Assembly (NCBI RefSeq): GCF_017348835.2
Contig: NZ_CP071375.1
DNA length: 64,000 nt
Origin: Escherichia coli
GTDB lineage: Bacteria > Pseudomonadota > Gammaproteobacteria > Enterobacterales > Enterobacteriaceae
Strand: one strand, 5' to 3'
Shown: positions 30,899 to 36,884 of the stretch, piece after piece
How the letters are laid out: each line of letters begins with the position of its first letter
Position numbering within the stretch: position 1 is the first letter of the stretch
The notes under the pieces: model-generated
Told to the model about the DNA's origin: nothing
The model's input: only the letters and a program-made list of their open reading frames with translations
The model's database searches: none
Position numbers and translations under genes: made by a program

Positions 30899-32548
30899 AT
30901 GAAAAACATCAATCCAACGCAGACCGCTGCCTGGCAGGCACTACAGAAACACTTCGATGAAATGAAAGACGTTACGATCGCCGATCTTTTTGCTAAAGAC
31001 GGCGATCGTTTTTCTAAGTTCTCCGCAACCTTCGACGATCAGATGCTGGTGGATTACTCCAAAAACCGCATCACTGAAGAGACGCTGGCGAAATTACAAG
31101 ATCTGGCGAAAGAGTGCGATCTGGCGGGCGCGATTAAGTCGATGTTCTCTGGCGAGAAGATCAACCGCACTGAAAACCGCGCTGTGCTGCACGTAGCGCT
31201 GCGTAACCGTAGCAATACCCCGATTTTGGTTGATGGCAAAGACGTAATGCCGGAAGTCAACACGGTGCTGGAGAAGATGAAAACCTTCTCGGAAGCGATT
31301 ATCTCCGGTGAGTGGAAGGGTTATACCGGCAAAGCAATCACTGACGTAGTGAACATCGGGATCGGCGGTTCTGACCTCGGCCCGTACATGGTGACCGAAG
31401 CACTGCGTCCGTACAAAAATCACCTGAACATGCACTTTGTTTCTAACGTCGATGGGACTCACATCGCGGAAGTGCTGAAAAAAATAAACCCGGAAACCAC
31501 GCTGTTCCTGGTAGCATCTAAAACCTTCACCACTCAGGAAACCATGACCAACGCCCATAGCGCGCGTGACTGGTTCCTGAAAGCGGCAGGTGATGAAAAA
31601 CACGTTGCGAAACACTTTGCGGCGCTATCAACCAATGCCAAAGCCGTTGGCGAGTTTGGTATTGATACTGCCAACATGTTCGAGTTCTGGGACTGGGTCG
31701 GCGGTCGTTACTCTTTGTGGTCAGCGATTGGCCTGTCGATTGTTCTCTCCATCGGCTTTGATAACTTCGTTGAACTGCTTTCTGGCGCACACGCGATGGA
31801 CAAGCATTTCTCCACCACGCCTGCCGAGAAAAACCTGCCTGTCCTGCTGGCGCTGATTGGCATCTGGTACAACAATTTCTTTGGTGCGGAAACTGAAGCG
31901 ATTCTGCCGTATGACCAGTATATGCACCGTTTCGCGGCGTACTTCCAGCAGGGCAATATGGAGTCCAACGGTAAGTATGTTGACCGTAACGGTAACGTTG
32001 TGGATTACCAGACTGGCCCGATTATCTGGGGTGAACCAGGCACTAACGGTCAGCACGCGTTCTACCAGCTGATCCATCAGGGAACCAAAATGGTACCGTG
32101 CGATTTCATCGCCCCGGCTATCACCCATAACCCGCTCTCTGATCATCACCAGAAACTGCTGTCTAACTTCTTTGCTCAGACCGAAGCGCTGGCGTTTGGT
32201 AAATCCCGCGAAGTGGTTGAGCAGGAATATCGCGATCAGGGTAAAGATCCGGCAACGCTTGACTACGTGGTTCCGTTCAAAGTGTTCGAAGGTAACCGCC
32301 CGACCAACTCTATCCTGTTGCGCGAAATCACTCCGTTCAGCCTGGGTGCGTTGATTGCGCTGTATGAGCACAAAATCTTTACTCAGGGCGTGATCCTGAA
32401 CATCTTCACCTTCGACCAGTGGGGCGTGGAACTGGGTAAACAGCTGGCGAACCGTATTCTGCCAGAGCTGAAAGATGATAAAGAAATCAGCAGCCACGAT
32501 AGCTCGACCAATGGTCTGATTAACCGCTATAAAGCGTGGCGCGGTTAA
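30899..32548 (+). CDS. pgi: Glucose-6-phosphate isomerase
   Basis: ORF 30893..32548 trimmed to [19 protein letters not shown]... (549 aa). Confidence 0.95.
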
Positions 32549-32550
32549 TC

Positions 32551-32660
32551 ATCGTTCATGCCTGATGCCGCTATGTAGGCCGGATAAGGCGTTCACGCCG
32601 CATCCGGCAACCGATGCCTGATGCGACGCGGTCGCGTCTTATCAGGCCTACAGGTCGATG
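32551..32660. repeat. REP cluster downstream of pgi
   Basis: GCCTGATGCCGCTATGTAGGCCGGATAAGGCGTTCACGCCGCATCCGGCA and GCCTGATGCGACGCGGTCGCGTCTTATCAGGCCTACA units. Confidence 0.75.
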
Positions 32661-32720
32661 CCGATATGTACATCGTATTCGGCAATTAATACATAGCACG
32701 ATTGATTAAATAACCTTAAT

Positions 32721-32755
32721 AACAATGCCGACGTTATGTCGGCATTGTTTTATCA
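32721..32755 (+). terminator. Strong intrinsic terminator (12-bp perfect stem) downstream of pgi
   Basis: AACAATGCCGAC-gttat-GTCGGCATTGTT followed by TTATC. Confidence 0.55.
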
Positions 32756-33059
32756 GATAAATCCCCTTGTCTGTTATTTAACGGAAATCATACCGTGAGG
32801 TTAATCCTAAAATAGATTTTTAATCGTGATTGATTTCGGAAAATACTCAGATTAATTACTTTTACTTTTATTTTAACATTATGATTTTTAATATTATTTA
32901 TATATAAGTTGTAGCTTATATTTGATATTCATTCCAATTATCCTAAAACCCCATCTCTAATTCCCCGCGCCGTAATTCGCATGCTTTAGTTGTGTATACT
33001 CGATCCCGCCCGAAATGTTTTTGGGTAAATCTCCATTCATTCAATGAAGGGAAATTGTT

Positions 33060-33302
33060 ATGAAAAAAGTTCTGTATGGCATTTTTGCCATATCTGCGCT
33101 TGCGGCGACTTCTGCGTGGGCTGCACCTGTACAGGTGGGCGAAGCGGCAGGGTCGGCAGCAACGTCGGTTTCGGCGGGGAGTTCCTCCGCGACCAGCGTC
33201 AGCACCGTAAGCTCGGCGGTGGGGGGCGCGCTCGCGGCAACCGGTGGCGGTGATGGTTCTAATACCGGGACCACAACAACCACGACCACCAGTACCCAGT
33301 AA
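33060..33302 (+). CDS. yjbE: Small secreted low-complexity protein of the yjbEFGH exopolysaccharide locus
   Basis: 80-aa ORF with signal peptide ([21 protein letters not shown]) and Ser/Gly/Thr/Ala-rich tail ending in poly-Thr. Confidence 0.85.
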
Positions 33303-33415
33303 TAAAGTATGTATCCCCAAAATAATTCGAGTCATCACATCTGTGGCTTGAAGTATGAAGGGATTTACCATAACCACACTCCGGTGTGGTTATTCTGCCC
33401 CTCTGGAGAAGAGTC

Positions 33416-34054
33416 GTGAAGCGACCTGCATTCATTCTTATCTGCCTGCTATTACAGGCCTGTTCAGCCACGACTAAAGAGCTGGGCAATTCACTGTGGG
33501 ACAGTCTGTTCGGTACGCCAGGTGTACAGCTGACGGACGATGATATTCAAAATATGCCCTACGCCAGCCAGTACATGCAGCTTAATGGCGGGCCGCAGTT
33601 ATTTGTGGTGCTGGCCTTCGCTGAAGACGGACAACAAAAATGGGTCACTCAGGATCAGGCCACTCTCGTCACACAACATGGTCGTCTGGTGAAGACTCTG
33701 CTTGGCGGCGACAACTTGATTGAGGTGAATAACCTTGCCGCCGACCCGCTGATTAAACCCGCACAAATCATTGATGGTGCAACTTGGACGCGCACGATGG
33801 GCTGGACCGAATACCAGCAGGTACGCTACGCCACCGCACGCTCAGTCTTCAAATGGGATGGCACCGATACCGTCAAAGTCGGCAGCGATGAAACCCCGGT
33901 TCGCGTGCTGGACGAAGAAGTCTCCACCAACCAGGCGCGCTGGCATAACCGCTATTGGATCGACAGCGAAGGGCAAATTCGCCAGTCGGAACAGTATCTC
34001 GGCGCGGATTATTTCCCGGTGAAAACCACCCTCATCAAGGCGGCAAAACAATGA
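33416..34054 (+). CDS. yjbF: Lipoprotein YjbF
   Basis: ORF 33386..34054; lipobox LLQAC after a hydrophobic signal; start probably GTG at 33416 (VKRPAFILICLLLQAC). Confidence 0.75.
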   Translation: MKRPAFILICLLLQACSATTKELGNSLWDSLFGTPGVQLTDDDIQNMPYASQYMQLNGGPQLFVVLAFAEDGQQKWVTQDQATLVTQHGRLVKTLLGGDNLIEVNNLAADPLIKPAQIIDGATWTRTMGWTEYQQVRYATARSVFKWDGTDTVKVGSDETPVRVLDEEVSTNQARWHNRYWIDSEGQIRQSEQYLGADYFPVKTTLIKAAKQ

Positions 34055-34788
34055 TCAAACAAACTTTTGTCGCGTTGCTTTTGAGTGTGGGAGCGTCATC
34101 GGTCTTCGCGGCAGGAACCGTCAAGGTGTTCAGCAATGGCAGCAGTGAGGCCAAAACACTAACAGGCGCAGAGCATTTAATCGATCTGGTAGGCCAACCG
34201 CGGCTGGCAAACAGCTGGTGGCCCGGTGCGGTGATCAGCGAAGAGCTGGCAACGGCGGCAGCATTGCGTCAGCAGCAGGCGTTGCTGACACGGCTGGCAG
34301 AACTGGCCGCAGACTCCAGCGCTGATGATGCCGCTGCGATTAACGCCTTACGCCAGCAAATTCAGGCGTTGAAAGTGACGGGTAGGCAAAAAATCAATCT
34401 TGATCCCGATATCGTCCGCGTTGCCGAACGCGGTAACCCGCCGTTGCAGGGGAACTACACGCTGTGGGTCGGACCACCGCCGTCCACGGTCACGTTGTTC
34501 GGGCTTATCAGCCGTCCTGGCAAGCAGCCATTCACTCCAGGTCGCGACGTGGCGAGCTATCTCTCTGACCAGAGCCTGCTCAGCGGTGCGGATCGCAGCT
34601 ACGCGTGGGTGGTTTACCCGGACGGACGCACGCAAAAAGCGCCGGTGGCTTACTGGAACAAGCGTCACGTAGAGCCGATGCCCGGCAGCATTATTTATGT
34701 TGGCCTCGCGGACTCCGTCTGGAGTGAGACGCCTGATGCCCTTAACGCCGACATTCTTCAGACTCTGACGCAGCGGATACCTCAATAA
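34051..34788 (+). CDS. yjbG: Periplasmic protein YjbG
   Basis: ORF 33955..34788 trimmed to [20 protein letters not shown]... (signal peptide); ATG overlaps the yjbF stop (ATGA). Confidence 0.8.
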
Positions 34789-36884
34789 TGAAAAAAAGAC
34801 ATCTGCTTAGCTTACTGGCGCTGGGCATTAGCACAGCTTGCTACGGCGAAACATATCCTGCGCCCATTGGTCCGTCGCAGTCGGATTTCGGTGGCGTAGG
34901 ATTATTACAAACGCCCACGGCTCGCATGGCGCGGGAAGGGGAGTTGAGTCTGAACTATCGCGATAACGATCAGTACCGTTATTACTCAGCTTCAGTGCAA
35001 CTCTTCCCGTGGCTGGAAACAACGCTGCGCTACACCGACGTGCGCACCCGGCAGTACAGCAGCGTCGAAGCGTTCTCTGGCGATCAAACGTATAAAGATA
35101 AAGCCTTCGATCTCAAACTGCGTTTGTGGGAAGAGAGTTACTGGCTGCCGCAAGTGGCGGTTGGTGCGCGGGATATCGGCGGTACGGGGCTGTTTGATGC
35201 GGAATATCTTGTTGCCAGCAAAGCCTGGGGGCCGTTCGATTTTACGCTCGGCCTGGGCTGGGGGTATTTGGGCACCAGCGGTAATGTGAAAAATCCGCTC
35301 TGTTCAGCCAGTGATAAATATTGCTATCGCGATAACAGCTACAAACAGGCGGGATCTATCTACGGTAGCCAGATGTTCCACGGTCCTGCCTCACTGTTTG
35401 GCGGCGTGGAATACCAGACGCCCTGGCAACCGCTGCGCCTGAAACTGGAGTATGAAGGCAATAATTATCAGCAGGATTTTGCCGGTAAGCTGGAGCAAAA
35501 AAGTAAGTTTAACGTCGGGGCGATTTATCGCGTTACCGATTGGGCCGACGTTAACCTTAGCTATGAACGTGGCAACACCTTTATGTTTGGCGTCACGCTG
35601 CGCACCAACTTTAACGATCTGCGCCCGTCTTACAACGATAACGCCCGCCCGCAATATCAACCGCAGCCGCAGGATGCCATTTTGCAGCATTCGGTGGTGG
35701 CGAATCAGTTAACGCTGTTGAAATACAATGCCGGACTTGCCGATCCGCAGATCCAGGCGAAAGGCGATACGCTGTATGTTACCGGCGAGCAGGTGAAATA
35801 TCGTGATTCGCGCGAAGGGATCATCCGTGCTAATCGGATCGTGATGAATGATCTGCCGGATGGGATCAAGACGATCCGCGTTACGGAAAATCGCCTTAAC
35901 ATGCCGCAGGTGACGACGGAAACGGATGTCGCCAGCCTGAAAAATCATCTCGCCGGAGAGCCGTTGGGCCACGAAACGAAGCTGGCGCAAAAACGCGTCG
36001 AGCCAGTGGTTCCGAAGTCCACCGAGCAGGGCTGGTATATCGACAAATCGCGCTTTGATTTCCATATCGATCCGGTGCTGAACCAGTCGGTCGGTGGCCC
36101 GGAAAACTTTTACATGTATCAGCTGGGCGTGATGGGAACGGCAGATTTGTGGCTGACGGACCATCTGCTCACCACCGGCAGCCTGTTTGCAAATCTTGCC
36201 AACAACTACGACAAGTTTAACTACACCAATCCGCCGCAGGACTCGCACTTACCGCGCGTGCGTACCCATGTGCGCGAGTATGTGCAGAACGATGTCTATG
36301 TGAATAACCTGCAAGCCAACTACTTCCAGCATCTGGGCAACGGCTTCTACGGTCAGGTCTACGGCGGCTATCTCGAAACCATGTTTGGCGGTGCGGGGGC
36401 TGAGGTGTTGTATCGCCCGCTGGACAGCAACTGGGCGTTTGGTCTGGATGCCAACTACGTTAAACAGCGCGACTGGCGTAGCGCGAAAGATATGATGAAA
36501 TTCACCGACTACAGCGCGAAAACCGGACATCTGACCGCGTACTGGACGCCATCTTTCGCCCAGGACGTGTTGGTGAAAGCGAGCGTTGGGCAGTATCTGG
36601 CAGGGGATAAAGGCGGCACGCTGGAGATCGCCAAACGCTTTGATAGCGGTGTGGTGGTGGGTGGCTATGCCACGATCACGAATGTTTCGAAAGAGGAGTA
36701 CGGCGAAGGGGACTTCACCAAAGGCGTGTATGTCTCTGTACCGTTGGATCTCTTCTCGTCTGGCCCGACACGCAGCCGTGCGGCGATTGGCTGGACGCCG
36801 CTGACGCGTGACGGTGGTCAGCAACTTGGGCGTAAGTTCCAGTTGTATGACATGACCAGCGACCGTAGCGTCAATTTCCGCTAA
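34788..36884 (+). CDS. yjbH: Outer-membrane-type lipoprotein YjbH
   Basis: 698-aa ORF with N-terminal signal/lipobox (LALGISTAC); start overlaps the yjbG stop. Confidence 0.85.

What the first reader, a model, noticed from the sequence alone, without database searches (positions are those of the whole stretch)
33060..33302. yjbE: tiny secreted protein that is almost entirely Ser/Gly/Ala/Thr low-complexity with a poly-Thr tail, preceded by a ~300-bp very AT-rich promoter region
The 80-aa product after signal-peptide removal is essentially a low-complexity S/G/A/T polymer ending [10 protein letters not shown]. The upstream 32760-33059 region is extremely AT-rich, typical of nucleoid-silenced, envelope-stress (Rcs)-activated promoters. 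The nature of the product (glycosylation substrate, matrix component) is unresolved.
Basis: partly seen in the sequence, partly recalled or inferred. Interest (0 to 1): 0.3.

Follow-up and report, generated by a model that had tools for sequence, protein, structure and literature searches.

The report
Known yjbE: tightly conserved tiny exoprotein
This is the already annotated E. coli gene yjbE, the first gene of the stress-induced yjbEFGH exopolysaccharide operon. Its tiny Ser/Thr/Gly/Ala-rich exported product looks like throw-away low-complexity sequence but is strictly conserved, and its function is still unknown.

Summary
Window 33060..33302 (+) is yjbE: 80 codons, Pfam YjbE at 108 bits, present in 5418 of 5426 complete E. 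coli genomes. The precursor has an AWA|AP signal peptide. The 59-aa mature part is 78% S/G/A/T and ends [10 protein letters not shown]. The 150 bp upstream of it are the most AT-rich stretch of the whole window (19% GC).

The gene, the operon and its Rcs (RcsA-RcsB) induction are already published, and the literature calls YjbE/GfcA "entirely uncharacterized".

The analysis adds several points. The sequence is not a drifting polymer. Across 68 orthologues dN/dS is 0.09, and 0.014 in the Thr tail. The T7 run and the 80-codon length are almost invariant, and YjbE is as conserved as YjbH. Eight of eight distant yjbF/gfcB loci carry an analogous small ORF: signal peptide, A/G/T/S-rich body, N/D motif, Thr tail. 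An invariant stem-loop separates yjbE from yjbFGH.

The "promoter region" is composite. It holds three conserved RcsB-box-like sites that overlap an Rfam STnc430 match on the opposite strand. H-NS silencing is not supported by anything I found.

AlphaFold finds no structure for YjbE, alone or fused to YjbF and YjbG. Verdict: an ordinary known gene, with an open and modestly interesting functional question.

The parts
32578..32648 (+). REP/BIME element after pgi. This is context and not part of yjbE.
   Evidence: Rfam naRNA4 RF02564, 79.5 bits (gathering 59.5).
32724..32752 (+). pgi terminator hairpin (AATGCCGAC-GTTAT-GTCGGCATT followed by a T run). It would also serve as the 3' end of the minus-strand STnc430 match.
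   Evidence: Read directly from the sequence. The hairpin is conserved, with changes on both arms, across 21 genera. The equivalent hairpin is flagged as terminator-like in L042. The consensus scan did not flag it in the window itself.
32714..32863 (-). Match to the Rfam family STnc430, a candidate enterobacterial sRNA, transcribed divergently from yjbE.
   Evidence: RF02053, 68.6 bits against a gathering score of 47. The same place and strand match in K-12 and in 13 of 18 other genera tested. RNAalifold finds no conserved structure, -1 kcal/mol.
32753..32766 (.). RcsB/RcsAB-box-like site 1 (TCAGATAAATCCCC).
   Evidence: One mismatch to TN(G/A)GAN4TC(T/C)NA (consensus from PMC7913699). The block TATCAGATAATTCC is conserved across genera.
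32796..32809 (.). RcsB/RcsAB-box-like site 2 (TGAGGTTAATCCTA), the best conserved of the three.
   Evidence: One mismatch to the RcsB consensus. Positions T1, A3, G4, T10, C11 and A14 are invariant in 21 genera. These are the core positions of the published RcsAB box as I remember it.
32836..32849 (.). RcsB-box-like site 3 (TCGGAAAATACTCA).
   Evidence: One mismatch to the RcsB consensus. The TTTnGGA..A.AC block is conserved. Centre-to-centre spacing of the three sites is 43 and 40 bp.
32798..32947 (.). Extreme AT-rich core (19% GC). Part of it varies freely between genera.
   Evidence: It is the lowest 150-bp GC window of the 64 kb. The stretch 32886-32925 is unalignable between genera, and most K-12/window differences cluster here.
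32931..32947 (.). Conserved box TCCAATTATCCTAAAAC. It repeats the ATCCTAAAA of site 2 and lies about 50 bp upstream of the -10-like hexamer.
   Evidence: Conserved in 21 genera. Its function is not known.
32990..33002 (+). Invariant 13-mer TTGTGTATACTCG containing a -10-like TATACT at 32995-33000. This is the inferred core promoter.
   Evidence: Identical in all 21 genera aligned in A3 and all 33 sequences of A4, but absent in exact form from 5 of 77 loci scanned. The consensus scan found no full sigma-70 match, as expected for an activator-dependent promoter. The transcription start site was not mapped here.
33008..33026 (+). 5' UTR stem-loop (GCCCGAAA-UGU-UUUUGGGU).
   Evidence: Predicted by folding. 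In 33 sequences, 5 pairs are kept and one pair covaries U-A to C-G in 7 sequences. The fold energy is not exceptional (z = -0.2).
33047..33052 (+). Shine-Dalgarno AAGGGA, 7 nt before the ATG. It sits inside the block TCCATTCATT..AATGAAGGGA, which is almost invariant.
   Evidence: The block can pair internally, but the lack of variation means covariation cannot be tested.
33060..33302 (+). yjbE coding sequence. Signal peptide codons 1-21 (33060-33122); mature 59 aa (33123-33299); Thr tail codons 70-80 (33267-33299); stop TAA.
33225..33227 (+). Codon 56 is GGC (Gly), where K-12 and 66 of 68 orthologues have Val. This is a private V56G variant of the window's lineage.
   Evidence: The exact 61-mer is found in only 2 of 5418 complete E. 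coli genomes, both pig isolates.
33313..33364 (+). Palindromic insert of about 50 nt, seen only in the Escherichia loci, lying between the yjbE stop and the conserved hairpin.
   Evidence: Folds as a hairpin; the whole spacer has z = -4.3. It is absent from most genera, and a longer form is present in L027. It gives a weak partial isrH hit, E = 5.5e-4. Its resemblance to ERIC elements is from memory only.
33370..33393 (+). Conserved intercistronic stem-loop AUAACCACAC-UCCG-GUGUGGUUAU.
   Evidence: The core TAACCACAC-loop-GTGTGGTTA is invariant in all 79 spacers read, and the loop is UUCG in most. The 10-bp stem is predicted by folding. It is not a canonical terminator by the scan criteria because the U tract is short.
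33416..34054 (+). yjbF, starting with GTG. It encodes a lipoprotein of the GfcB family.
   Evidence: Pfam PF11102, E = 1.6e-63. K-12 annotation.
34051..34788 (+). yjbG (GfcC family). It overlaps the end of yjbF by 4 nt.
   Evidence: Pfam PF20616 and PF06251.
34788..36884 (+). yjbH (GfcD family outer-membrane protein). It overlaps the end of yjbG by 1 nt.
   Evidence: Pfam PF06082, E = 5.8e-269. The two-barrel architecture is taken from PMC8346858 and PMC9603273.

Best explanation
yjbE is a real, translated gene. It encodes a Sec-exported, cleaved 59-aa polypeptide with no basic residue that is disordered on its own. This polypeptide is a dedicated and sequence-specific component of the YjbFGH (GfcBCD-type) outer-membrane exopolysaccharide module.

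Transcription starts from an activator-dependent promoter that RcsA-RcsB switches on under envelope or osmotic stress. A strictly conserved stem-loop separates yjbE from the overlapping yjbF-G-H genes. I infer that this loop lets YjbE be made in a different, probably larger, amount than the machine proteins.

The specific role I think most likely is that YjbE acts in the periplasm or at the outer membrane as cargo or adaptor of YjbH. It would be handed to, or threaded through, the FapF-like N-terminal barrel of YjbH, with its hydroxyl-rich conserved C-terminal motif (GDGSNTG-T7-STQ) contacting the polysaccharide or the pore.

Shown here or in the literature: export signal, translation, selection, operon context, Rcs control, and a genetic link to the Yjb phenotype. 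Inferred: stoichiometric excess, interaction with YjbH, and the role of the tail.
For: Identity and ubiquity.

Translation and constraint. In 67 pairwise comparisons with orthologues, dS is about 0.64 and dN 0.059 (dN/dS 0.093). For codons 51-80 dN/dS is 0.039, and for the Thr tail 0.014. Every Thr codon of the T7 run uses 2-4 synonymous codons but never changes its amino acid. Mean identity to the window protein is 88.6% for YjbE, against 80.8% for YjbF, 68.7% for YjbG and 88.2% for YjbH. The Shine-Dalgarno sequence is invariant.

The architecture is general. Eight of eight distant yjbF/gfcB loci carry a 64-111 aa ORF immediately upstream with a signal peptide, an A/G/T/S-rich body, an N/D-rich motif and a Thr-rich tail usually ending in R.

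Genetics from the literature. An in-frame +9-bp insertion in yjbE occurs in mucoid clones alongside yjbG and yjbH mutations, and never in non-mucoid clones (PMC8540638). [quoted passage not shown]

Rcs control. Three conserved RcsB-box-like sites lie upstream.

Intercistronic hairpin: invariant in 79 spacers. yjbF/G/H overlap one another by 4 and 1 nt, whereas yjbE is 113 nt away from yjbF.

Disorder: AlphaFold mean pLDDT is 45.6. GfcA is 'predicted natively unstructured' (PMC8346858).

YjbH: an N-terminal FapF-like barrel and a C-terminal PgaA-like barrel (PMC8346858 and PMC9603273).
Against: - No experiment shows where YjbE ends up or what it binds.
- AlphaFold on a YjbE-linker-YjbF-linker-YjbG fusion folded F and G (pLDDT about 90) but left YjbE at pLDDT 21-26 with no secondary structure. 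No docking is predicted, though this test is weak.
- YjbH was not modelled here, and sequence search finds no solved relative. The FapF likeness therefore rests on two papers, not on my own test.
- The hairpin shows no covariation because it never varies, so an RNA-level role is unproven. It fails the terminator scan.
- Deleting the whole operon also causes mucoidy in an rpoS mutant (cited in PMC8540638). The phenotypes therefore do not single out YjbE as cargo rather than as a machine subunit.
- The dN/dS comparisons all share the window sequence and are not phylogenetically independent.
Confidence: 0.6

Rival explanations
1. Glycan carrier. YjbE (and GfcA) is O-glycosylated on its Ser/Thr residues with the exopolysaccharide or O-antigen, and is exported as a glycoconjugate through YjbH/GfcD. 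This is a protein-anchored polysaccharide. It matches the first reader's 'glycosylation substrate' and the speculation in Larson et al. 2021.
For: Ser and Thr together make up 42% of the mature protein. The Thr-rich tail is conserved in all distant analogues. Distant loci sit next to glycosyltransferase, UDP-glucose dehydrogenase and Bac_transf genes. Larson et al. propose it for GfcA (PMC8592465). The yjb operon has no glycosyltransferase of its own, so the sugar must come from another pathway.
Against: As far as I know, E. coli K-12 has no protein O-oligosaccharyltransferase; this was not tested here. Purifying selection is just as strict on Gly, Ala, Val, Asp and Asn positions, which is more than a bare acceptor stretch would need. 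No glycosylated YjbE or GfcA has been reported in the papers read.
Confidence: 0.15
2. Fibre or matrix subunit. YjbE is secreted unfolded through the FapF-like barrel of YjbH and polymerises outside the cell into an amyloid-like or matrix fibre, in the way FapC uses FapF or CsgA uses CsgG.
For: The N-terminal barrel of YjbH is related to the amyloid exporter FapF. YjbE occupies the first-gene position, separated from the machine genes by a hairpin, as is typical of major subunits. Its composition is small, beta-prone and rich in G/A/V/T.
Against: AlphaFold predicts no beta structure. The protein has no imperfect repeats and no Q/N-rich repeat core. No nucleator or chaperone genes are present. 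The papers read report no fibres. At 59 aa with a net charge of about -2, it is short for a fibre subunit.
Confidence: 0.07
3. Membrane-anchored regulator. The protein is a bitopic inner-membrane protein, as GfcA is annotated. It is held by its central hydrophobic stretch and modulates synthesis or export from the inner membrane.
For: RefSeq calls GfcA a 'threonine-rich inner membrane protein'. GfcA-type analogues have a hydrophobic core with a Kyte-Doolittle 19-residue mean of 1.9-2.3.
Against: The best 19-residue window of YjbE reaches only 1.0 (1.24 with Val56), below the usual ~1.6 threshold for a membrane span. Its hydrophobic run is about 8-11 residues. In the window strain V56G lowers it further.
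Confidence: 0.05
4. No function of its own. The ORF is only a leader or spacer whose translation or GC-rich RNA tunes expression of yjbFGH.
For: The ORF is tiny and low in complexity, has no detectable fold and has no assigned function in the literature.
Against: dN/dS is 0.09 with dS about 0.64, so the amino-acid sequence is conserved rather than the RNA. The signal peptide is conserved. An analogous ORF is present in 8 of 8 distant loci whose DNA is unrelated. An in-frame 9-bp insertion is associated with a phenotype.
Confidence: 0.02
5. About the upstream region only. The conserved blocks at 32714-32863 are conserved because they encode the sRNA STnc430 on the minus strand, not because they are Rcs operators. 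The AT-rich stretch would then be a shared divergent promoter zone and perhaps an H-NS target.
For: The Rfam match is above the gathering score here and in most genera tested. A TAAAAT hexamer lies about 6 nt upstream of the model's 5' end on the minus strand, inside a conserved block (my reading). The match ends at a hairpin followed by a T run.
Against: RNAalifold finds no conserved structure or covariation. Several pairs of the Rfam structure are non-canonical in the window. The pattern is short invariant blocks separated by freely varying, indel-rich spacers. The invariant positions coincide with the core of the RcsB/RcsAB box. The literature search for STnc430 returned only two unrelated papers. 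The two readings do not exclude each other.
Confidence: 0.3

Closest known systems
YjbE of E. coli K-12 (b4026; Pfam PF11106), first gene of the Rcs-regulated yjbEFGH exopolysaccharide operon (Ferrieres et al. 2007, as cited)
   Same: It is the same gene. The locus is pgi-yjbE-yjbF-yjbG-yjbH-yjbT-psiE-xylE, the region is 97% identical to K-12, and the Pfam match is full length.
   Different: There is one amino-acid difference, V56G, at a position that is Val in 66 of 68 orthologues. The exact sequence is shared by only 2 of 5418 complete E. coli genomes. There are also a few substitutions in the AT-rich upstream core.
GfcA (YmcD), first gene of the group 4 capsule operon gfcABCDE-etp-etk
   Same: It occupies the same position, ahead of paralogous B/C/D genes (GfcB is 40% identical to YjbF). 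The architecture is the same: signal peptide ending A-x-A|AP, a T/G/A-rich body, a G/A/V stretch, a D/N-G-S motif and a Thr-rich C-terminus. Its function is equally unknown.
   Different: No statistically supported sequence homology exists in the mature part. BLASTP gives E = 1.4, GfcA does not match PF11106, and hhalign aligns only the signal peptides. GfcA is longer (101 aa), 30% Thr, and has a hydrophobic core long enough for a membrane span (KD 2.16 against 1.0-1.2).
Substrates of outer-membrane amyloid exporters (FapC with FapF; CsgA with CsgG)
   Same: This comparison concerns how YjbE might work, not membership. In both cases a small, Sec-exported, unfolded protein of small residues is encoded with a dedicated outer-membrane channel. 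The N-terminal barrel of YjbH is reported as FapF-like.
   Different: YjbE has no repeat units, no Q/N-rich core and no predicted beta structure. No nucleator, chaperone or protease genes are present. Export through YjbH has not been tested.
Ser/Thr/Ala-rich low-complexity acceptor regions of bacterial O-glycoproteins, and the Ser/Thr-rich PEP-CTERM proteins of EPS loci (both recalled from general knowledge)
   Same: They share secreted, hydroxyl-rich low-complexity sequence encoded next to polysaccharide genes.
   Different: To my knowledge K-12 has no O-oligosaccharyltransferase or exosortase. There is no PEP motif, and the tail after the hydrophobic stretch is long and acidic or polar rather than a short basic cluster. 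Neither family was tested as a membership here beyond reading the sequences.

Membership tests
YjbE family (Pfam PF11106) | Full-length match to the family profile above the curated cut-off | tested here: met
   108.3 bits against a cut-off of 27.9, covering residues 1-79 of a 79-position profile.
YjbE family (Pfam PF11106) | First gene of a yjbE-yjbF-yjbG-yjbH cluster | tested here: met
   PF11102, PF20616 with PF06251, and PF06082 follow directly downstream. The order is the same in K-12, and tblastn finds YjbE ahead of yjbF in all 78 loci that retain the upstream sequence.
GfcA (group 4 capsule) homologue | Significant sequence similarity of the mature protein to GfcA | tested here: not met
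   BLASTP E = 1.4. GfcA does not match PF11106. The profile-profile alignment covers only the signal peptide.
GfcA (group 4 capsule) homologue | Same position and domain-less architecture (signal peptide, T/S/G/A-rich body, Thr-rich C-terminus) ahead of gfcB/C/D-type genes | tested here: met
   and 8 of 8 distant loci.
Rcs (RcsA-RcsB) regulon | RcsB/RcsAB box upstream of the promoter | tested here: inconclusive
   Three sites with one mismatch each lie within 100 bp, and their core positions are conserved in 21 genera. However, the motif is not enriched in the window overall (44 found, 58 expected). The sites lie about 150-250 bp upstream of the inferred -10 and overlap an Rfam sRNA match.
Rcs (RcsA-RcsB) regulon | Expression dependent on RcsB/RcsA and induced by envelope stress | not testable with these tools
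   Reported in the literature: PMC5461412, PMC5651002, PMC3599342, PMC8117528.
H-NS-silenced locus | H-NS occupancy in ChIP and derepression in hns mutants | not testable with these tools
   Only AT-richness was seen. No paper in the library links H-NS to yjbE.
Sec/SPase I secreted protein | n-h-c signal peptide with small residues at -3 and -1, and no lipobox | tested here: met
   The sequence MKK / [15 protein letters not shown] / AWA|AP has no Cys. The pattern is conserved in orthologues, with position -1 Ala in 67 of 68. This was judged by rule; no dedicated predictor was run.
Intrinsic (Rho-independent) terminator, for the yjbE-yjbF hairpin | G+C-rich stem followed directly by a U tract | tested here: not met
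   A 10-bp stem is present, but the tail is UCUG in E. coli and UUUG in most genera. It is not reported by the terminator scan in the window or in L042.
STnc430 sRNA (Rfam RF02053), for 32714-32863 minus strand | Covariance-model score above the gathering threshold | tested here: met
   68.6 bits against 47. Structural support is weak.
Transmembrane protein | A hydrophobic segment of about 19 residues with a mean Kyte-Doolittle value above ~1.6 in the mature part | tested here: not met
   The maximum is 0.99 in the window protein and 1.24 in K-12. GfcA-type analogues reach 1.9-2.3.

The most novel reading that the evidence does not exclude
YjbE/GfcA-type peptides are a widespread, previously undefined class of exported disordered 'tail' proteins: a signal peptide, a G/A/V/T-rich core, an N/D-G-S motif and an oligo-Thr C-terminus. 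They would be the proteinaceous cargo or primer of the two-barrel YjbH/GfcD exporters. The peptide would use the FapF-like barrel while the polysaccharide uses the PgaA-like barrel, possibly covalently joined. That would supply the missing anchor of group 4 capsules and of the Yjb exopolysaccharide. It would also explain why losing any Yjb component triggers the Rcs stress response.
Probability: 0.15. Interest if true: 0.65.

Novelty: already known. Interest (0 to 1): 0.27.

Why it matters
yjbEFGH is among the most strongly Rcs-induced loci. Mutations in it repeatedly arise in evolution experiments, giving mucoidy under predation, sedimentation resistance and phage pressure. Yet nobody knows what the operon's first and smallest product does, nor what GfcA does in the group 4 capsule of pathogenic E. 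coli.

Two results make the question experimentally sharp. First, the apparently featureless peptide is under selection as strict as that on the outer-membrane channel. Second, an equivalent peptide accompanies the yjbF/gfcB genes in all eight distant loci examined. The function therefore lies in a specific short sequence, above all the GDGSNTG-T7-STQ end, that can be mutated, tagged and tracked. For the genome scan itself, the finding is a correct reading of a known gene, not a discovery.

Tried and rejected
- Sequence search for YjbE relatives returned mostly frameshifted or truncated variants of the same gene and no distant family members. I replaced it with a synteny approach.
- The genome-contig scan kept only the 80 closest loci, all Enterobacteriaceae. 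More distant loci had to be fetched one at a time.
- Homology between YjbE and GfcA was not demonstrable by BLASTP, Pfam or hhalign.
- NCBIfam gave only insignificant hits: WGxxGxxG and the TDE1717 barrel.
- PDB sequence searches for YjbE and YjbH gave nothing usable.
- AlphaFold on YjbE alone gave pLDDT 45.6. On a YjbE-linker-YjbF-linker-YjbG fusion with a paired alignment, the YjbE part stayed at pLDDT 21-26. There was no induced fit, so I found no support for binding to YjbF or YjbG. The fusion trick and the shallow alignment make this a weak negative.
- The sigma-70 and terminator consensus scan found nothing in 32500-33500.
- The RcsB-box pattern is not enriched window-wide. Only its clustering and conservation are informative.
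- The original papers (Ferrieres 2007; Ionescu & Belkin 2009) and a dRNA-seq TSS table were not held. The mapped TSS, the published RcsAB box position and H-NS occupancy therefore could not be checked.
- A YjbH multi-species alignment for a PDB profile search failed because I guessed the coordinates wrongly, and I dropped it.
- I considered and rejected PEP-CTERM/exosortase and GlyGly-CTERM sorting signals (no PEP or GG motif followed by a short basic tail), a lipoprotein (no Cys), and the antisense ORFs 33041..33289 and 32943..33377. The codon-level selection is in the + frame.
Full report
WHAT IS THERE

The window is an E. coli chromosome segment with the gene order lysC-pgi-yjbE-yjbF-yjbG-yjbH-yjbT-psiE-xylE. 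The reported ORF, 33060..33302 on the + strand, has 80 codons and runs from ATG to TAA. It matches Pfam PF11106 'YjbE' over its full length (108 bits, cut-off 27.9). The three genes downstream match the YjbF/GfcB, GfcC and YjbH families. RefSeq annotates the ORF as 'exopolysaccharide production protein YjbE'. It is present in 5418 of 5426 complete E. coli genomes, always at 95% identity or more. The window is 100% identical to pig isolate PE164 across this region.

CHECK OF THE OBSERVATION

The precursor begins [23 protein letters not shown], a classical type I signal peptide with no lipobox. I judged this by rule and ran no predictor. The 59-residue mature part contains T13, S12, A11, G10 and V6, which makes it 78% S/G/A/T. 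It has no Lys, Arg, His, Cys or aromatic residue and ends [10 protein letters not shown].

This is far outside chance for the window. Among 240 six-frame ORFs of at least 60 aa it ranks first for S+G+A+T (70%, next 51%). Its Thr run of seven has no rival; the next longest is three.

The upstream 300 bp is 31% GC against 50% for the window. The truly extreme stretch is about 32798-32947 at 19% GC, the lowest 150-bp window of the whole 64 kb. The last ~110 bp before the ATG are of ordinary composition.

WHAT IS ALREADY KNOWN

- yjbEFGH is a published operon implicated in an exopolysaccharide distinct from colanic acid, and the RcsA-RcsB heterodimer activates it (PMC5461412; PMC5651002).
- Envelope damage induces it strongly: log2 5.74 for yjbE after colicin M (PMC3599342). 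Osmotic stress also induces it.
- It is described as a paralogue of gfcABCD in the group 4 capsule operon.
- GfcA and YjbE are called 'entirely uncharacterized' (PMC11494523) and 'predicted natively unstructured' (PMC8346858). Larson et al. speculate that the Ser/Thr-rich GfcA might be modified by O-antigen and exported through GfcD (PMC8592465).

NOT A DRIFTING POLYMER

I fetched 80 yjbF loci from species-level genomes of about 20 named Enterobacteriaceae genera and read the gene upstream of yjbF in each.

- By tblastn, YjbE is present in all 78 loci that retain the upstream sequence.
- In 68 gap-free orthologues, including the window's own copy, the length is exactly 80 codons and the T7 run never varies. 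Only the Kluyvera group deviates, with T5-S-T3 or T5-S-T5.
- The C-terminal 29 residues, [29 protein letters not shown], are nearly invariant.
- Nei-Gojobori counts against the window sequence give dN/dS = 0.093 overall with dS about 0.64. The value is 0.039 for codons 51-80 and 0.014 for the Thr tail, where dS is about 0.77.
- Each of the seven Thr codons uses two to four synonymous codons across species but never changes its amino acid.
- Mean identity to the window protein is 88.6% for YjbE. That equals YjbH (88.2%) and exceeds YjbF (80.8%) and YjbG (68.7%).

These comparisons all share one reference, so they are not independent, but the signal is very large. It is evolutionary proof that the ORF is translated in this frame and that the exact sequence matters, not just the composition.

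Within E. coli, 58 of 60 genomes sampled evenly down the ranking have exactly 243 nt. One (GPEC1176) has a T5 tail and one (EC25) carries IS1 inside yjbE.

The window's own allele is unusual. It has V56G (GTC to GGC at 33225-33227) at a position that is Val in 66 of 68 orthologues. The exact 61-mer occurs in only 2 of 5418 complete genomes.

THE ARCHITECTURE IS GENERAL, BUT SEQUENCE HOMOLOGY TO GfcA IS NOT DEMONSTRABLE

A profile of YjbF plus GfcB finds 1009 representatives across the 50%-identity library. I looked up eight diverse ones. Every one is preceded by a 64-111 aa ORF with no Pfam match. Each of these ORFs has:

- a signal peptide;
- an A/G/T/S-rich body;
- a G/A/V/I-rich hydrophobic stretch;
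- an N/D-rich motif (for example NDDSDGNSN or SNNRDGSNGG);
- a Thr-rich C-terminus, usually ending in Arg.

GfcA of K-12 has the same layout.

The mature parts nevertheless cannot be shown to be homologous. BLASTP of YjbE against GfcA gives E = 1.4. GfcA does not match PF11106. hhalign between the two sets aligns only the signal peptides.

One real difference stands out. GfcA-type proteins have a hydrophobic core long enough for a membrane span (Kyte-Doolittle 19-mer mean 1.9-2.3). YjbE reaches only 1.0-1.2 and should be soluble after export.

OPERON ANATOMY

yjbF, yjbG and yjbH overlap by 4 and 1 nt. yjbE stands apart, 113 nt upstream of the GTG start of yjbF.

The spacer contains a stem-loop with an invariant core, TAACCACAC-(UUCG or UCCG)-GTGTGGTTA, found in all 79 spacers read. 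The surrounding sequence and the spacer length vary from 60 to 190 nt, with repeat-element insertions on either side. In the window it lies at 33370-33393. The spacer as a whole folds with z = -4.3.

This stem-loop does not meet the terminator scan's U-tract criterion. Because it never varies, covariation cannot be assessed. I infer an attenuator or mRNA-stability role that uncouples YjbE levels from those of YjbFGH. This is a hypothesis.

THE UPSTREAM REGION IS COMPOSITE

Phylogenetic footprinting in 21 genera shows, in order:

1. The pgi terminator hairpin (32724-32752).
2. Three conserved blocks, each with one mismatch to the RcsB consensus TN(G/A)GAN4TC(T/C)NA (consensus from PMC7913699; sites at 32753, 32796 and 32836, spaced 43 and 40 bp). 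The invariant positions of the middle site (T1, A3, G4, T10, C11, A14) are the core of the RcsAB box as I recall it from Wehland and Bernhard 2000.
3. A freely varying AT-rich stretch.
4. A conserved TCCAATTATCCTAAAAC box (32931-32947).
5. An absolutely invariant TTGTGTATACTCG (32990-33002) containing a -10-like TATACT.
6. A 5' UTR hairpin with one covarying pair.
7. An invariant Shine-Dalgarno block.

The same 32714-32863 interval scores above threshold for the Rfam family STnc430 on the minus strand (68.6 bits against 47). So does the equivalent interval in K-12 and in 13 of 18 other genera tested. RNAalifold finds no conserved structure there, and the literature search for STnc430 returned only two unrelated papers. 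I therefore favour operators but cannot exclude an sRNA, and the two readings are compatible.

One paper notes that two promoters are annotated at the yjbE locus (PMC6238139). I could not obtain the mapped start sites.

Nothing I could reach bears on H-NS. AT-richness alone makes binding plausible, nothing more.

HOW IT MOST LIKELY WORKS

Shown here or in the literature:

- YjbE is translated, carries an export signal and is tightly constrained.
- It is co-inherited with the YjbFGH-type module, in 78 Enterobacteriaceae loci and, as an analogous ORF, in all eight distant loci examined.
- The operon is switched on by Rcs.
- Lesions in yjbE behave like lesions in yjbG or yjbH. An in-frame +9-bp insertion in yjbE, two yjbH mutations and one yjbG mutation were the operon mutations found in mucoid clones and in no non-mucoid clone (PMC8540638).
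- YjbH/GfcD is predicted to be a single chain with two barrels. The N-terminal barrel is related to FapF, the exporter of unfolded amyloid subunits. The C-terminal barrel is related to the PNAG porin PgaA (PMC8346858; PMC9603273).

Inferred: YjbE is the polypeptide partner of this machine. Most plausibly it is a cargo or adaptor that engages the FapF-like barrel and presents its hydroxyl-rich tail to the polysaccharide or the pore, and it is made in non-stoichiometric amounts because of the spacer hairpin.

I put about 0.6 on the general statement (an exported, sequence-specific Yjb component). I put much less on any particular sub-mechanism: glycan carrier about 0.15, fibre subunit about 0.07, membrane anchor about 0.05, no function about 0.02.

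My structural tests did not help. AlphaFold gives YjbE a pLDDT of 45.6 on its own. In a linker fusion with YjbF and YjbG, which themselves fold at about 90, the YjbE part stays at 21-26. No solved relative of YjbE or YjbH is detectable by sequence.

VERDICT

Its picture of a loose polymer behind a nucleoid-silenced promoter is only partly right. The feature is already known, so novelty is low.

Three points are worth passing on:

- The constraint on a sequence that looks like filler is extreme.
- The architecture recurs in all eight distant yjbF/gfcB-type loci examined.
- Conserved RNA and DNA elements frame the gene.

Together these turn 'what is YjbE/GfcA for?' into a question that a handful of experiments could answer.

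Noticed in passing
window 32714-32863 (- strand): An Rfam STnc430 (RF02053) match above gathering score lies in the pgi-yjbE spacer, divergent from yjbE. It overlaps the three conserved RcsB-box-like motifs and ends at the pgi terminator. K-12 RefSeq annotates nothing there. No conserved secondary structure was found.
   Followed up: partly
window 32578-32648: A REP/BIME element directly after pgi scores as Rfam naRNA4 on both strands (79.5 and 54.8 bits). Relative to K-12 the window has 13 extra bases just after the pgi stop (alignment A2, columns 5-17).
   Followed up: no
window 33225-33227: V56G in YjbE, at a position that is Val in 66 of 68 orthologues. The exact surrounding 61-mer occurs in only 2 of 5418 complete E. 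coli genomes, both pig isolates (PE164, F2_81). It also creates a G6 run. Its functional consequence is unknown, though it lowers the already weak hydrophobicity of the central stretch.
   Followed up: partly
window 33313-33364: A ~50-nt palindromic insert, seen only in the Escherichia loci, lies between the yjbE stop and the conserved hairpin. A ~125-nt version sits at the same spot in Citrobacter sp. L027. REP-like inserts lie on the other side of the hairpin in several Citrobacter and Enterobacter loci. It looks like a short ERIC-type element (from memory) and gives a weak partial isrH hit.
   Followed up: partly
window 33370-33393: A stem-loop (10-bp stem in the window) has an invariant core in all 79 yjbE-yjbF spacers read. 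Most genera have a cUUCGg tetraloop; E. coli has UCCG. Such invariance of both arms is unusual for a simple RNA hairpin and might indicate a sequence-specific partner.
   Followed up: partly
window 32990-33059: The 13-mer TTGTGTATACTCG is invariant and the SD block TCCATTCATT..AATGAAGGGA almost so, and the block can pair with itself and partly occlude the Shine-Dalgarno. Between them is a hairpin with one covarying pair. This may be translational or stability control of yjbE.
   Followed up: partly
L092 (E. coli EC25) 1665-2684; L091 (E. coli GPEC1176) 31-267: Natural yjbE variants exist. One has an IS1A insertion splitting the gene. Another is a 78-aa allele with T5 instead of T7.
   Followed up: yes
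proteins P0017, P0019, P0031, P0035, P0043: Several public YjbE entries are frameshifted within the GC-rich Ser/Ala region into the same alternative frame (...[25 protein letters not shown]). I did not establish whether these are sequencing errors at G/C runs or real pseudogenes.
   Followed up: no
L083-L090 (distant yjbF/gfcB loci): All eight carry an unannotated-family small ORF with a signal peptide, an A/G/T-rich body and a Thr tail, directly upstream of the yjbF homologue. In some, glycosyltransferase, UDP-glucose dehydrogenase or Bac_transf genes lie just upstream, and in one a GerE regulator plus an EAL-domain gene (L084).
   Followed up: partly
bioRxiv 10.1101/2025.05.13.653802: A Reg-Seq preprint lists yjbE among candidate targets of an unidentified osmotic-stress activator motif shared by yjbJ and ybaY. 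I did not locate that motif in the window.
   Followed up: no
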